Assembly: GCF_003704095.1 (NCBI RefSeq)
Contig: NW_020846275.1
Span: forward strand, 1 to 64,000
From: Pocillopora damicornis
Taxonomy: Eukaryota
Reading direction: 5' to 3'
DNA: 64,000 bases
A program made the position numbers. Positions 3,001 to 64,000 of this stretch are shown in pieces (positions within the stretch are counted from its first letter, which is position 1; every line of letters begins with the position of its first letter).

Positions 3001-6000
3001 CCCAAAGGTTTCCCAGGGGAAGAACAAAGTTAGAAAAAAGGTTGCACTCAGTACTGGCGCAAACACATCAGATGAGATATTACTGAAAAAGCTGGCCGCG
3101 AATACAGTCAGCTCTCATTGTCACTGCCCTTGACCAAACGTGAATTATAGAACAGCACAATTGGCTGAAAGCAAACAAAAGGTAGCATACGTAATAGGCT
3201 TTTGATTTAAGTGACACGCACGCGCAGAAAGTCGCGCCCGCGAGAGACGGAGGTCAGTATTGGGGCACACCACTGAGACAAACGGAGCTCTATTTCGCGA
3301 GTCTCTGGTGGGGGCTTTATTAAAAGGTTATCGAGTAAGTTGCCGAACTTTAACATGAACTCGTGAGTAATTGACTAAAAAATTGCAAGGTTAAACGAAG
3401 TAAGCGTGGTCAGTGAGTTACCGCTCACGACCTAAATCTTCTTCTATTATCAGTTACGTTGAGACTTTAAAGCGACGGGTAACGGCGTTGAACACTACCC
3501 CTCTCTGTATGCGCTAGAATGGGGAGTTACTCAGAATAATTTTCCGTGTGAATGATAACAGCTAGAGCTGAGCCATACACTTTCGGGTGGTAAAGATTTC
3601 ACTTACAAACACTTGGTCAAAAAGAAATATGCGCTATATATATAAAATAATTATGATGCGTATTTCAACAAAATAGTACTCAGACTCTGTGTGGAATAAA
3701 TAGCGATTTAGCTCACGAATGCGACACATGGTCATCATTAGTAACATTGACTTCTGCTTCTGGCTGCACTGAATCATCGCACCTCTGGCTGTCTTCAGAG
3801 TCTCCTGTTTTTGTCTTCTTAAACCGATGTTGGTGTTCAATCTCGAGGCTCTCTCTTTTGGTCAGCGTTGTTCCCATGGTAACCACACTGAAGGGGCGGT
3901 CAGTCAACAGCGTCTCCGTCGCTTTCGACAAGCAGCAAGGATCACCTGAGCCCGCACACGCCGGATCATCAGATCCAACTGACAAACGACTATTCTCTTC
4001 GCTTGCGCATGTGTAGCTACTCAAGCCACCTAAGATTAGAGACAAGGTTTGTTTGGTCACGTCACTGTTGCTAGTCTTCAGTACCTTCTCCACATCACCT
4101 TCTCCAAAACCGTCGTCGCTATTATTTTCGCTTTCAATGCTGTGAGTAATCGGTGACATGCCATCGTTTGCTAATGTCTGGTGGCCATTGTCAATACTTT
4201 TTTTAACTCCTATCACATCCTCGATCACTCCATCCAACTGATCGCCACCAGCTTCGTTATCATCGATTTCACCCACACTGTCGCTGTCACTTTCCTCACT
4301 TGTACTATCTAAGAAGCTCGTCATGTTTCTTGAGGGGGAGGGGAATGGCGAGTCCATCAATTCGGCACCGTAGAAAATATAACGGCAAGGTGGTTTAAAG
4401 ATGAACCGGGGAGAATCTAGAAATGATGAGTTATGAAAATAAACAAAAATAAAAAAACTCAATATTAGAGAGTTTCTACTACTCCCAGTTAATCTATATT
4501 AGGTCAGAAGACAGTCGATCCGGTTCTTTTCACTGCTGCTATGTGTTAAGTTGCATGGATCTTCCCTAGAAGACTACAAAACTATAAAGAGTATATAAAA
4601 TATACCTTCTTCACATATTGTGCCGTTGTTTGTAGAATGTTTATTTTCTTCTCCAGTAGCTGAAGCTCTCGGATGCTCTCGGTTTAACTCGTCACCAGTG
4701 TCACTACAGCCACTACTCTCACCAACAGTCACGTGACCGTCGAGTTGATTGGGTGTACTTACAGCATCTCGCACTTGCGTTTCATCGTGCAATATGTCTT
4801 CATTGTTTGGTACATTCTGCGGTGTACAAAAGTCAACACATCGTCTAAAAAATACGGCCAATAGTCTGATAATCAATCAATGCTTTAGTTTTAACTTGAA
4901 ATCATCGTCAGGGAAAACAGATTAAAGTAAGGTTAGAAACAGAAGGAAGGGGCAACCACTAATAAAACGAAACCGCTTCTGCTGATAAGAACAAACAATA
5001 CAGTTTGTAGCAATCTTGTTCGGCAATTTTCAAAAGGGTTGTCACGTGACGTCTTTTTTTCCTGTTAACTCGATGATTAGGCCGGTATCGACTGGTATGA
5101 ACCACCACAGTCTTTCTATTTTTGTGCTTCATCAAATTTTAGCGGCAAGTTTAACCATAATTTGTCACGTGATCAGCTGGTCTTTGTAGAGCAAAGGCAC
5201 TCCGGGATTGTACTGGGCTTGCTTCATTTTCTTCAGTTATTGCTCAAGAAAACTAAAATCGATCGCAGCTTAGCCACTCTCAATTTCTCGCAAATGAGAC
5301 AGTTGTTTAATCTGAGTTCTTGTTTCCTCCTTGGAATAATACTTGTTGTAATTGGTCTTCCTGGTTACTTTGATTCTGTTTTTGTTGTTGTTGTTGTTGT
5401 TGTTTGTTATTCTTTAGCACGCAAACAAAAACGCCCTAACACCTATCCATTATACTTACCTCAGACGTTTCTTTCTCTCCCGACGAGTGACCCCTCTCTT
5501 CGATACGTTCCTCAACTGAAGTCAGCTTCGCTGGCAAAGATCGCAATCTTTTCACACAGGGAATTTCCAAATCATCTGACAAACCGCTCCAAGTCCCACC
5601 CAGCCGCTGACAAAGCTCGGAGACGATGACGTCACAGTCGCCCAGTAACTCGACATCAAATGTCAGATGTCTAAGCGGCTCTCTGTTGATAAGCACTTGT
5701 GGAACCTCAGGTGGCACGTGACCTATAGTGAGCAAGGTAAACAAAACTACCATTCACTAAGTGATAGAAATTCATACATCATTAAAATTTCTATCGCTTT
5801 AATCCAAGGTTTCATCTCATAGCACAAATGCCACTACTGTGCACTAAAATATACAGTTGATGCGATCCTACTCTCGATAACTATGAAATCAATGGGAAGC
5901 AATACTTCTTTGCACATGAAAAAATCGTCAGCATCAACAACTAAGAGCCGTTACAAGACACATTATGGTTTATCAAATACTTAACTGGGAGCTGTTTAAA

Positions 6001-63000: not shown

Positions 63001-64000
63001 AAGGGATTGGCAGGGATCTCAAATAATTGGGGAGCTGCACTTTAACTCCGCGAGACACGGCGTCCATTTCGGTTTCAAGAATCACGTGAACGACGTACCG
63101 GGTAATTGTTTTGTTGTTCTTTTGTACTCTTTGTTTCTTCGCATCGTTAGCGGCTAGTCAGCAGCTTCTGAAAGTAACGTCTAACACGTCATGTTTGACG
63201 ATGTTTAAAAGCAGATTTTCATCATGGCGGACGAAAACAACTTGCAAATTCGAAACCAAGAAGCTGCTATAACTAGCAAAAGAGCCAGAGTTTTACAATT
63301 TATTGGACTTTTTATTCCTCCTTCAGGGTTTTTTGGACAAACTTTGACTCGTGCTGTGATTGTCATCCTCAGCTGGGCAGTATTATGGTCCATTCTTGGT
63401 GCTGAACTTCTACCAGGAGGCAACATCTTCGGAATTTTCAACGTGATAGTGCTTGCCGCTTTAGGTGGCTTTATGACCAGAAAAATCTCTAAAGGCACCT
63501 TGCCTTCGCTACTAGGGATGCTTGTTGTTGGATTCATTTTACGTAATGTGCCAGGGATCAATGTAGCGCGCCATATTGACAAGAAATGGTCAGCAACTTT
63601 GCGTAGTATGGCGCTTGTTGTAATTCTTACGCGATCAGGTTTGGAACTGGACCCAGGAGCTTTGCGGCGGCTTAAATTCACTGTAATTCGCTTGGCTTTT
63701 TGCCCATGTATTGGAGAGGCCATCACGGTTGCTGTTGTCGGTAAACTGTTATTAAACATGCCTTGGCTTTGGGGGTTTCAACTTGGGTAAGTGTCAGCGA
63801 TATTCGACCGCAAGCGCTAGACGAGCCGCTGCAAATGCCGCTTTTAAGACTAACAGGTTTTTTTTTATATCAAACATTGATTGAAATGAGTGCGGTGCTA
63901 TCCAGGATAAAGGGGCATGTGATCAATTAGAATATGTACACCATGAGAAACATATTTCAATGTTTAAAATTATTCTAGGAGCAGTTTGTTTGATTGAGTT

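What the first reader, a model, noticed from the sequence alone, without database searches (positions are those of the whole stretch)
3713..63786. Ancient microsynteny: SIRT1 - UBE2D - ADAMTS2/3/14 - CISD - SLC9B
Established human gene order: UBE2D3-CISD2-SLC9B1/SLC9B2 are adjacent on 4q24, and CISD1-UBE2D1 are adjacent on 10q21 with SIRT1 (10q21.3) and ADAMTS14 (10q22) nearby. ADAMTS3 is on 4q and ADAMTS2/UBE2D2 on 5q. All five families lie within 60 kb here, suggesting a block retained since the cnidarian-bilaterian ancestor. This also supports the ADAMTS2/3/14 orthology call.
[Added by the scan's program, not by the reader: the finding's places include an assembly gap (unread letters, written N; its length is only estimated) at 16886 to 16963. 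Whether the letters on both sides are continuous or in frame is not known: test that first.]
Basis: partly seen in the sequence, partly recalled or inferred. Interest (0 to 1): 0.65.

Follow-up and report, generated by a model that had tools for sequence, protein, structure and literature searches.

The report
Conserved UBE2D–CISD–SLC9B gene neighbourhood
This intron-bearing animal genome stretch keeps the genes UBE2D, CISD and SLC9B close together as on human chromosome 4, an ordinary but clean case of very old gene-order conservation, with SIRT1 and an unusual ADAMTS protease gene lying in the same 60 kb.

Summary
Between 3713 and 63786 lie a SIRT1-type gene (-), two tandem UBE2D genes (-), one large ADAMTS gene (+), two tandem CISD1/2-type genes (-) and the first coding exon of an SLC9B/NHA gene (+). 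The N gap (16886-16963) sits inside intron 4 of UBE2D copy A. Both flanking exons are phase 0, and the six exons add up to 147 codons, as in copy B.

UBE2D-CISD-SLC9B matches the consecutive human genes UBE2D3-CISD2-SLC9B1-SLC9B2 (coordinates in PMC6071118) and mouse Ube2d1-Cisd1 (PMC5774710). Chance is a poor explanation for this, about 4e-7 for the human triple under a random gene order.

SIRT1 and ADAMTS14 lie megabases from CISD1-UBE2D1 in human (positions recalled). They therefore show shared ancestral chromosome or paralogon, not microsynteny. The organism could not be identified, and no other lineage or gene tree could be examined, so "since the cnidarian-bilaterian ancestor" stays unproven. 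SIRT1's linkage also depends on the scaffold join at the gap.

The ADAMTS has the ADAMTS2/3/14 layout (three C-terminal TSP1 repeats plus PLAC). It also carries two VHL-beta-like and two MAM modules, all in frame as phase 1-1 cassettes.

The parts
3713..12659 (-). SIRT1-type gene with 12 exons: 12659-12344, 11532-11447, 10922-10767, 10214-10062, 9131-8984, 8307-8228, 7318-7258, 6652-6585, 6257-6197, 5722-5460, 4816-4606, 4416-3716. Stop is TGA at 3715-3713.
   Evidence: Phase-consistent GT/AG chain summing to 2304 nt. Pfam SIR2 and DUF592. Best PDB match is human SIRT1 at 68.9 bits against SIRT2 at 46.7. The last exon's top PDB hit is the SIRT1 C-terminal regulatory peptide, weakly (E 0.15).
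15179..19056 (-). UBE2D copy A with 6 exons: 19056-19033, 18805-18742, 18533-18502, 18387-18310, 16335-16230, 15318-15182. Total 441 nt, or 147 codons.
   Evidence: UQ_con in 3 of its 5 ORF pieces. AG/GT at every internal junction. Splice chain. The exon-3 start (18533) was placed by analogy with copy B and its AG checked.
16886..16963 (.). Assembly gap (78 N) inside intron 4 of UBE2D copy A.
   Evidence: Searches give the position. The flanking exons end at 18310 and start at 16335, both phase 0. ORFs next to the gap have no Pfam family.
21272..25387 (-). UBE2D copy B with 6 exons: 25387-25364, 25122-25059, 24864-24833, 24709-24632, 22627-22522, 21411-21275. Total 441 nt.
   Evidence: UQ_con in 3 of its 4 ORF pieces. 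The last exon's best 60 PDB matches are all UBE2D1-3 or UBC4/5-type, top score 74.6 bits. It differs from copy A by 12 of 145 full codons and 75 of 441 nt.
31778..56416 (+). ADAMTS gene of ADAMTS2/3/14 layout; the 5' exon with start codon is not resolved. Order: propeptide 31778?-31929, 32415-32609, 33373-33568; catalytic 39659-39807, 40275-40358, 41391-41518, 41939-41958, 42411-42516, 42682/42727-42870; disintegrin-like 43113-43293, 43908-44030; TSP1 44559-44737, 45337-45400; Cys-rich 45585-45702, 49899-50044, 50392-50512; spacer 50921-50995, 51434-51591; three TSP1 52472-52598, 52922-53048, 53681-53882, 54075-54216; PLAC 56283-56413.
   Evidence: Pfam hits: Pep_M12B_propep, Reprolysin (18.9 bits, below cut-off), ADAMTS_CR_2, TSP_1, ADAMTS_CR_3, ADAMTS_spacer1, TSP1_ADAMTS, PLAC (24.7 bits, below cut-off 26.4). 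The active-site exon gave 10 of 10 PDB hits to ADAMTS4/5/1/13. In-frame splice chain over 33 junctions.
36586..39250 (+). Two VHL-beta-like modules, each of two exons: 36586-36671 + 37362-37569 (98 codons) and 38314-38399 + 39046-39250 (97 codons). They lie between the propeptide and catalytic exons of the ADAMTS.
   Evidence: Pfam VHL at 1.4e-06 (28.7 bits, cut-off 21) and 3.8e-04 (20.9 bits). All 24 PDB hits at E<=1 are VHL, best 0.0028. The two copies match each other at 33% over 70 residues, E 3.6e-14, with no third copy in the window. Both are phase 1-1 units. The short first exons gave no hit in Pfam or PDB.
46228..49303 (+). MAM module 1 (46228-46368, 47097-47263, 47724-47813, 49141-49303), inserted in a phase-1 intron inside the Cys-rich region.
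   Evidence: Pfam MAM at 4.3e-09, 2e-09 and 1.5e-04 and 0.057. Phase 1-1. Skipping it (45702 to 49899) also stays in frame.
54465..55662 (+). MAM module 2 (54465-54674, 54910-55166, 55560-55662), between the last TSP1 repeat and PLAC.
   Evidence: Pfam MAM at 2.7e-18 and 1.5e-04. The first exon had no hit. Phase 1-1. Skipping it (54216 to 56283) stays in frame.
58842..60145 (-). CISD1/2-type copy A with 2 exons: 60145-59807 and 58961-58845 (152 codons).
   Evidence: MitoNEET_N at 1.9e-19. PDB CISD1 and CISD2 score about equally, 26.5 against 26.3 bits; the best hit is a CISD-1/mitoNEET entry at 29.8. The CDGSH pattern quoted in PMC5311916 is met across the exon junction.
61932..63067 (-). CISD1/2-type copy B with 2 exons: 63067-62756 and 62027-61935 (135 codons).
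   Evidence: MitoNEET_N at 5.8e-20. Splice chain. 93 of 152 aligned columns are identical to copy A.
63068..63223 (.). 156-bp divergent spacer between the putative start codons of CISD copy B (-) and SLC9B (+).
   Evidence: ATG positions come from the ORFs. CpG o/e is 1.73 over only 156 bp, which is not informative. Promoter sharing is inferred, not shown.
63224..63786 (+). SLC9B/NHA first coding exon; the gene continues beyond the window.
   Evidence: PDB: only SLC9B2 matches (7b4l at 2.7e-43, 7p1i at 9.6e-42), aligned to residues 72-238 of 537. Strong donor after 63786. No Pfam hit at E<=0.01.

Best explanation
The window is a real, gene-dense stretch of a non-vertebrate animal genome. It carries SIRT1, UBE2D (x2), an ADAMTS2/3/14-type gene, CISD1/2 (x2) and SLC9B.

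The closeness of UBE2D, CISD and SLC9B is inherited. The same three families are consecutive on human 4q24, and UBE2D-CISD are adjacent again on the paralogous 10q21 segment. The linkage therefore predates the two vertebrate genome duplications and goes back at least to the last common ancestor of this organism and vertebrates.

SIRT1 and the ADAMTS belong to the same ancestral chromosome, seen in vertebrates as the 4q/5q/10q paralogon. Only here are they shown to be tight neighbours of the other three.

Retention is most likely passive, through short intergenic distances and a slowly rearranging genome. Promoter sharing between head-to-head pairs may help. Local inversions and tandem duplications have changed order and orientation.

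Shown here: gene content, family identity by best hit, and the human and mouse neighbourhoods from papers.
Inferred: the age of the linkage, the cause of retention, and orthology in the strict sense.
For: - Gene map and family identity.
- Complete in-frame exon chains.
- Human order and coordinates, from the table passage of PMC6071118: UBE2D3 103,934,619-104,009,491; CISD2 104,009,575-104,033,412; SLC9B1 104,025,641-104,160,345; SLC9B2 104,160,837-104,217,977.
- UBE2D3;CISD2 are listed as one promoter bait (passage of PMC10953390).
- NHA1 and NHA2 are adjacent at 4q24 (passages of PMC9174904).
- Mouse chr10 order is Tfam-Ube2d1-Cisd1-Ipmk (passage of PMC5774710).
[quoted passage not shown] This fits the equal CISD1 and CISD2 scores here.
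- ADAMTS2/3/14 arose by 1R/2R (passages of PMC4349717).
- Chance: three given genes falling within four consecutive positions among 19,500 has P = 4.7e-8. Over the 8 paralogue combinations this is 3.8e-7 (gene numbers are my assumptions).
Against: - Order and orientation are not conserved. The 25-kb ADAMTS lies between UBE2D and CISD here. CISD-B and SLC9B are head to head here, whereas in human the head-to-head pair is UBE2D3/CISD2 (orientation recalled) and CISD2 overlaps SLC9B1. No single shared promoter is conserved.
- No other lineage was examined.
- The organism is unidentified.
- Orthology rests on best hits to solved structures and on domain layout, not on trees.
- SIRT1 and the last two exons of UBE2D-A are joined to the rest only across the N gap.
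- The human positions of SIRT1, ADAMTS14, ADAMTS3, ADAMTS2 and UBE2D2 are recalled. One search found no paper.
Confidence: 0.7

Rival explanations
1. All five families formed one tight cluster in the cnidarian-bilaterian ancestor, this window preserves it, and vertebrates spread SIRT1 and ADAMTS away from UBE2D-CISD by later insertions and rearrangements.
For: - All five lie within 60 kb here.
- In human, the members sit on the same chromosomes in parallel: UBE2D1/CISD1/SIRT1/ADAMTS14 on 10q, UBE2D3/CISD2/ADAMTS3 on 4q, and UBE2D2/ADAMTS2 on 5q. These positions are recalled.
- ADAMTS2/3/14 are 1R/2R paralogues (PMC4349717).
Against: - Same-chromosome location over 10-40 Mb is what conserved macrosynteny alone predicts, so it does not show ancestral adjacency.
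- The tight five-gene arrangement could equally be a lineage-specific compaction.
- The taxon is not established.
- SIRT1's link crosses the gap.
- No second species has been examined.
Confidence: 0.2
2. Chance or convergent juxtaposition. The neighbourhood here and the human one arose independently.
For: - Order and orientation differ between the two species.
- Many windows were scanned, which gives room for coincidences.
Against: - The random-order probability is 3.8e-7 for the human triple.
- Allowing about 10 triples per window and about 10^4 windows (my assumption) gives well under one expected case.
- The UBE2D-CISD pair recurs on the paralogous mouse and human segment.
Confidence: 0.03
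3. Partly an assembly artefact. The scaffold join at the N gap is wrong, so SIRT1 (with UBE2D-A exons 5-6) does not belong next to the rest. Alternatively, the duplicated genes are uncollapsed haplotypes.
For: - The gap (16886-16963) separates SIRT1 and UBE2D-A exons 5-6 from everything else.
- Its length is only estimated.
Against: - Exons on the two sides complete one 147-codon gene with matching phase 0 and the same order and strand as copy B.
- Intron 4 is 1974 nt in A and 2004 nt in B.
- Copies A and B align only in exons, at 75-91% nt identity, with introns unalignable. The CISD copies are 68-73% identical in exons. They are therefore old duplicates, not haplotypes.
- The core UBE2D-B to SLC9B stretch has no gap.
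Confidence: 0.05

Closest known systems
Human 4q24 cluster UBE2D3-CISD2-SLC9B1-SLC9B2
   Same: The same three families are immediate neighbours. The human span is 283 kb (PMC6071118 table passage). Here it is 48.6 kb, from the UBE2D-A stop to the SLC9B exon-1 end.
   Different: - Here UBE2D and CISD are each tandemly duplicated, and only one SLC9B is seen before the window ends.
- An ADAMTS gene lies between UBE2D and CISD.
- The head-to-head pair is CISD/SLC9B, not UBE2D/CISD.
Human 10q21 / mouse chr10 pair CISD1-UBE2D1 (next to TFAM)
   Same: The UBE2D-CISD linkage occurs on the paralogous segment (mouse order from a PMC5774710 passage). SIRT1 and ADAMTS14 are on the same human arm (recalled).
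   Different: There is no SLC9B there. SIRT1 and ADAMTS14 are about 9.5 and 12 Mb away with dozens of genes between (recalled), not neighbours.
Conserved ancient microsyntenic pairs and blocks of metazoans (Irimia et al. 2012, PMC3514665; Robert et al. 2022, PMC8851819)
   Same: Unrelated genes are kept close over very long times. Explanations on offer are co-regulation, including bidirectional promoters, or regulatory blocks (abstract).
   Different: None of these five families is named in the main text of either paper (0 occurrences in each). Their block lists are in supplements that were closed, so this block may or may not be listed already.
Vertebrate ADAMTS2/3/14 (procollagen N-proteinases)
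   Same: The domain order matches, with one central and three C-terminal TSP1 repeats ending in PLAC (PMC4349717 passages; Pfam).
   Different: There are two VHL-beta-like modules before the catalytic domain and two MAM domains, one inside the Cys-rich region and one before PLAC. No furin-type site was seen directly before the catalytic exon. No tree was made.

Membership tests
SIRT1 (Sir2/SIRT1 branch of class I sirtuins) | Sirtuin catalytic core that is closer to SIRT1 than to SIRT2 or SIRT3 | tested here: met
   Pfam SIR2 at 9.4e-12 and 5.2e-15. Exon 8982-9131 scored 68.9 bits against SIRT1, 46.7 against SIRT2 and 42.7 against SIRT3.
SIRT1 (Sir2/SIRT1 branch of class I sirtuins) | N-terminal DUF592 region and C-terminal regulatory (ESA-type) segment | tested here: inconclusive
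   DUF592 scored 24.5 bits, exactly at the cut-off. The last exon's top PDB hit is the SIRT1 C-terminal peptide (4kxq_B, 4if6_B), but at E 0.15.
UBE2D (UBC4/5-type E2) | UBC core of 147 residues that is closest to UBE2D1-3 | tested here: met
   UQ_con in 6 of 9 ORF pieces. Both copies have 441 nt. All of the best 60 PDB matches shown, of 168 in total, are UBE2D or UBC4/5-type. Only exon 6 of copy B was searched.
CISD1/2 (class I NEET proteins) | N-terminal membrane-anchor region plus a single CDGSH 2Fe-2S motif | tested here: met
   MitoNEET_N at 1.9e-19 and 5.8e-20. The pattern C-X-C-X2-(S/T)-X3-P-X-C-D-G-(S/A/T)-H quoted in PMC5311916 is met across the exon 1/2 junction in both copies. The zf-CDGSH Pfam model gave no hit because the motif is split between exons.
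CISD1/2 (class I NEET proteins) | Assignment to CISD1 or to CISD2 | tested here: inconclusive
   Human CISD1 and CISD2 chains score 26.5 and 26.3 bits. This fits a gene that predates the vertebrate duplication (abstract of PMC5311916).
SLC9B / NHA | Closest to SLC9B2 rather than to SLC9A exchangers | tested here: met
   Only 2 distinct PDB sequences match at E<=0.001, and both are SLC9B2 (2.7e-43 and 9.6e-42). Only the first coding exon is in the window. The Pfam Na_H_Exchanger model gave no hit at E<=0.01.
ADAMTS2/3/14 | ADAMTS core followed by three additional TSP1 repeats ending in a PLAC domain (PMC4349717) | tested here: met
   Pfam domains are in order. Exactly three TSP1 repeats follow the spacer. 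PLAC scored 24.7 bits, below the cut-off of 26.4.
ADAMTS2/3/14 | Monophyly with vertebrate ADAMTS2/3/14 in a gene tree | not testable with these tools
   No ADAMTS2/3/14 structure is among the PDB hits, and no eukaryotic protein collection was open. My recollection that the zinc-site and flanking motifs resemble ADAMTS2/3/14 is a lead only.
ADAMTS2/3/14 | No further domain types | tested here: not met
   Two VHL-beta-like and two MAM modules lie in frame in the gene. It is unknown whether they are constitutive or cassette exons.
Conserved metazoan microsyntenic block | Three or more unrelated families within a few genes of each other in distant taxa | tested here: met
   UBE2D, CISD and SLC9B lie within 6 genes here and within 4 consecutive genes in human. 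Only these two species were compared.
Conserved metazoan microsyntenic block | Presence in several independent lineages, above the expectation from shuffled genomes | not testable with these tools
Conserved metazoan microsyntenic block | SIRT1 and ADAMTS2/3/14 inside the same block in a second taxon | tested here: not met
   In human they lie megabases away (recalled positions; no paper found).

The most novel reading that the evidence does not exclude
The whole five-family block, not just UBE2D-CISD-SLC9B, was a compact cluster in the common ancestor of this organism and vertebrates. If the organism is a cnidarian, that is the eumetazoan ancestor. On this reading the block is the seed of the human 4q/5q/10q paralogon and was held together by shared regulation. 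Examples of such sharing are the 156-bp divergent CISD/SLC9B spacer here and the shared UBE2D3;CISD2 promoter in human.
Probability: 0.2. Interest if true: 0.55.

Novelty: new member of a known kind. Interest (0 to 1): 0.35.

Why it matters
- It gives a clean anchor for reconstructing the pre-duplication segment behind human 4q24 and 10q21.
- It supports treating UBE2D1/2/3, CISD1/2 and ADAMTS2/3/14 as duplicates produced by whole-genome duplication.
- It offers a test case for whether housekeeping neighbours that share promoters stay linked for regulatory reasons or by inertia.

Conserved gene neighbourhoods of this kind number in the hundreds, so the block itself is not surprising. The ADAMTS gene inside it may be the more unusual object, because of its in-frame VHL-beta-like and MAM modules.

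Tried and rejected
- Gene trees and synteny in other animals were not possible.
- The taxon of the window was not determined. Rfam found only one weak tRNA-like hit.
- The Atlas look-up of a VHL-like exon was unavailable.
No fold evidence exists.
- A PDB search of ADAMTS exon 42668-42904 gave 0 hits.
- A PDB search of the first exon of VHL-like module 2 gave 0 hits.
- Pfam on 10 trimmed short exons gave only 2 weak hits.
- Ten further long ORFs between and inside the genes had no Pfam family, as did 26641-26940, 26988-27347, 60663-60986 and 60767-61165. No further gene was found.
- CpG o/e of the putative promoters was uninformative.
- Literature: 'synten' + CISD2 + UBE2D3 returned 0 papers. 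Four of SIRT1/ADAMTS14/UBE2D1/CISD1/'chromosome 10' returned 0 papers. No listed paper combined 'microsynten' with these genes among the 20 of 146 shown. One search was badly chosen and gave nothing useful. No paper with 'VHL domain' plus ADAMTS was found; 0 occurrences of 'vhl domain' in the 8 listed.
- The uncollapsed-haplotype explanation for the duplicated genes was rejected, because their introns do not align.
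Full report
**Scope and limits.**
The window is intron-bearing eukaryotic DNA with GC about 0.38. I do not take it for human. CISD scores equally against CISD1 and CISD2, introns are short, and several genes are tandem duplicates absent from human. Spliced gene models were studied exon by exon through window references. No eukaryotic sequence collection was open. Gene trees and synteny in other animals could therefore not be done, and the organism was not identified.

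**Gene map.**
Stop-to-stop ORFs, Pfam, PDB sequence searches and phase-consistent GT/AG chains give the following order.
- A TRIM-NHL-like exon at 496-1638 (+), outside the finding.
- SIRT1-type gene, 12659-3713 (-): 12 exons, 768 codons.
- UBE2D copy A, 19056-15179 (-).
- UBE2D copy B, 25387-21272 (-).
- ADAMTS gene, about 31778-56416 (+).
- A weak tRNA-like element, 57941-58013.
- CISD copy A, 60145-58842 (-).
- CISD copy B, 63067-61932 (-).
- SLC9B first coding exon, 63224-63786 (+), after which the window ends.

**The gap.**
The 78 N at 16886-16963 lie in intron 4 of UBE2D copy A.
- Exon 4 ends at 18310 and exon 5 starts at 16335, both in phase 0. The frame does not depend on the gap's length.
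- The six exons of copy A sum to 441 nt, as in copy B, with AG/GT at all internal junctions.
- They follow the same order and strand as copy B.
- Intron 4 is 1974 nt in A, counting the estimated gap, and 2004 nt in B.
- ORFs beside the gap have no Pfam family.

Continuity of the scaffold cannot be proven. SIRT1 and UBE2D-A exons 5-6 are linked to the rest only through this join. The stretch from UBE2D-B to SLC9B has no gap.

**Family identity.**
- *SIRT1.* Pfam SIR2 and DUF592 hit 3 of 10 ORF pieces. Exon 8982-9131 scores 68.9 bits against human SIRT1, 46.7 against SIRT2 and 42.7 against SIRT3. The last exon's top PDB hit is the SIRT1 C-terminal regulatory peptide, but only at E 0.15.
- *UBE2D.* UQ_con hit 6 of 9 pieces. 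The best 60 of 168 PDB matches to exon 6 of copy B are all UBE2D or UBC4/5-type.
- *CISD.* MitoNEET_N scored about 1e-19 in both first exons. The CDGSH pattern quoted in PMC5311916 is met across the junction. Human CISD1 and CISD2 score alike. [quoted passage not shown]
- *SLC9B.* The only PDB matches are SLC9B2, at 2.7e-43. Pfam was silent at E<=0.01.
- *ADAMTS.* Propeptide, Reprolysin (below cut-off), disintegrin-like, TSP1, Cys-rich, spacer, three further TSP1 repeats and PLAC (below cut-off) appear in order. The active-site exon hits only ADAMTS4/5/1/13, 10 of 10 hits. PMC4349717 (passages, and section 5 read) gives three additional TSP1 repeats plus PLAC as the shared structure of ADAMTS2/3/14. 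It also mentions an incomplete Nematostella protein that can be annotated as ADAMTS2/3/14. The layout test is met. The tree test could not be run.

**Tandem duplicates.**
The UBE2D copies differ at 12 of 145 full codons and 75 of 441 nt. The CISD copies share 93 of 152 aligned columns. Between copies only exons align; introns do not. These are old, real duplications, not uncollapsed haplotypes.

**Comparison with mammals.**
- A table passage of PMC6071118 lists human UBE2D3, CISD2, SLC9B1 and SLC9B2 as consecutive genes within 283 kb. UBE2D3 and CISD2 are 84 bp apart, and CISD2 overlaps SLC9B1.
- PMC10953390 (passage) lists UBE2D3;CISD2 as one promoter bait.
- PMC9174904 (passages) states that NHA1 and NHA2 are adjacent at 4q24.
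- PMC6886870 (passages) places MANBA, UBE2D3 and CISD2 at 4q24.
- PMC5774710 (passage) gives the mouse order Tfam-Ube2d1-Cisd1-Ipmk.
One search found no paper.

**Chance.**
Under a random gene order of 19,500 genes, three given genes fall within four consecutive positions with P = 4.7e-8. Over 8 paralogue combinations this is 3.8e-7 (gene numbers assumed). Even allowing about 10 triples per window and about 10^4 windows, fewer than one case is expected. The UBE2D-CISD pair also recurs on the paralogous segment. The core linkage is therefore inherited.

**Reading.**
The core UBE2D-CISD-SLC9B neighbourhood is genuine conserved microsynteny between this organism and mammals, and it predates the vertebrate duplications. 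SIRT1 and the ADAMTS are tight neighbours only here. In human they share chromosome arms with the UBE2D paralogues at distances of 10-40 Mb (recalled). Conserved macrosynteny alone predicts that.

Order and orientation differ between the species. The ADAMTS is interposed, and CISD-B and SLC9B are head to head with 156 bp between putative start codons. A single conserved bidirectional promoter therefore cannot be the constraint. Passive retention in a compact, slowly rearranging region, perhaps helped by promoter sharing, is the most economical account.

Systematic surveys report hundreds of such pairs (abstract of PMC3514665). Neither that paper nor PMC8851819 names these genes in its main text. 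No paper in the library combines 'synten' with CISD2 and UBE2D3. Their supplementary lists were closed and may contain the block.

**Side observation: the ADAMTS architecture.**
- Between the propeptide and catalytic exons lie two paralogous two-exon modules: 36586-36671 + 37362-37569, and 38314-38399 + 39046-39250.
- Their larger exons hit Pfam VHL beta domain, at 28.7 bits above cut-off and 20.9 bits just below. In the PDB they hit only VHL, 24 of 24 hits, best E 0.0028. The small first exons gave no hit.
- The two modules are 33-34% identical.
- The positions aligned to the VHL residues that I recall as the hydroxyproline pocket are among their invariant columns, with conservative changes. 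The pocket residues are W88, Y98, S111, H115 and W117 (roles and numbering recalled).
- Two MAM domains are also present, one inside the Cys-rich region and one before PLAC.
- All four modules are flanked by phase-1 introns, and each has a length divisible by three. The chain is in frame both with and without them. This is the classical signature of exon shuffling.
- Without transcripts I cannot say whether they are constitutive or cassette exons.
- A hydroxyproline-reading module in a procollagen-proteinase-type enzyme is an attractive hypothesis, but untested. No fold prediction could be run.

Noticed in passing
window 36586-39250 (+): Two VHL-beta-like modules of two exons each sit in frame (phase 1-1) between the propeptide and catalytic exons of the ADAMTS gene. 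Residues aligned to the recalled hydroxyproline pocket of VHL are kept or conservatively changed in both. No VHL alpha domain is present. I found no paper describing a VHL-type domain in an ADAMTS.
   Followed up: partly
window 46228-49303 and 54465-55662 (+): Two MAM domains are inserted as phase 1-1 modules in the ADAMTS gene, one splitting the Cys-rich region and one before PLAC. Skipping either keeps the frame.
   Followed up: partly
window 63068-63223: Only 156 bp separate the putative start codons of CISD copy B (-) and SLC9B (+). This may be a bidirectional promoter. The SLC9B N-terminus would be about 50 residues shorter than in bison NHA2, so an upstream exon cannot be excluded.
   Followed up: partly
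window 496-1638 (+): A single long exon encodes a filamin repeat plus NHL repeats. The best PDB matches are TRIM71 (122 bits), TRIM3 (109 bits) and TRIM2 (81 bits). Its upstream exons would lie before the window, and orthology is open.
   Followed up: partly
window 57941-58013 (+): Rfam reports a tRNA at 31.7 bits (gathering score 29, E 0.011), but ARAGORN finds no tRNA in the window. It may be a tRNA-derived repeat or a degenerate gene.
   Followed up: partly
window 40762-40975, 47847-48060, 53528-53595, 58281-58402; also 37135-37244, 46580-46689, 61276-61385: Two families of short dispersed repeats (61-80% identical copies) lie in ADAMTS introns and between genes. There is also a near-perfect 86-nt hairpin at 46454-46639. 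These are probably SINE- or MITE-like elements.
   Followed up: no
window 60663-61165: Overlapping ORFs on both strands lie between the two CISD copies (108 and 133 aa), with no Pfam family. The plus-strand one looks to me like a fragment of a mobile-element protein, which is an impression only.
   Followed up: no
window 39659-39807 (+): No furin-type basic site is visible directly before the first catalytic exon of the ADAMTS. The only poly-arginine run is early in the propeptide exon 31778-31929. The 5' exon with start codon and signal peptide was not found.
   Followed up: partly
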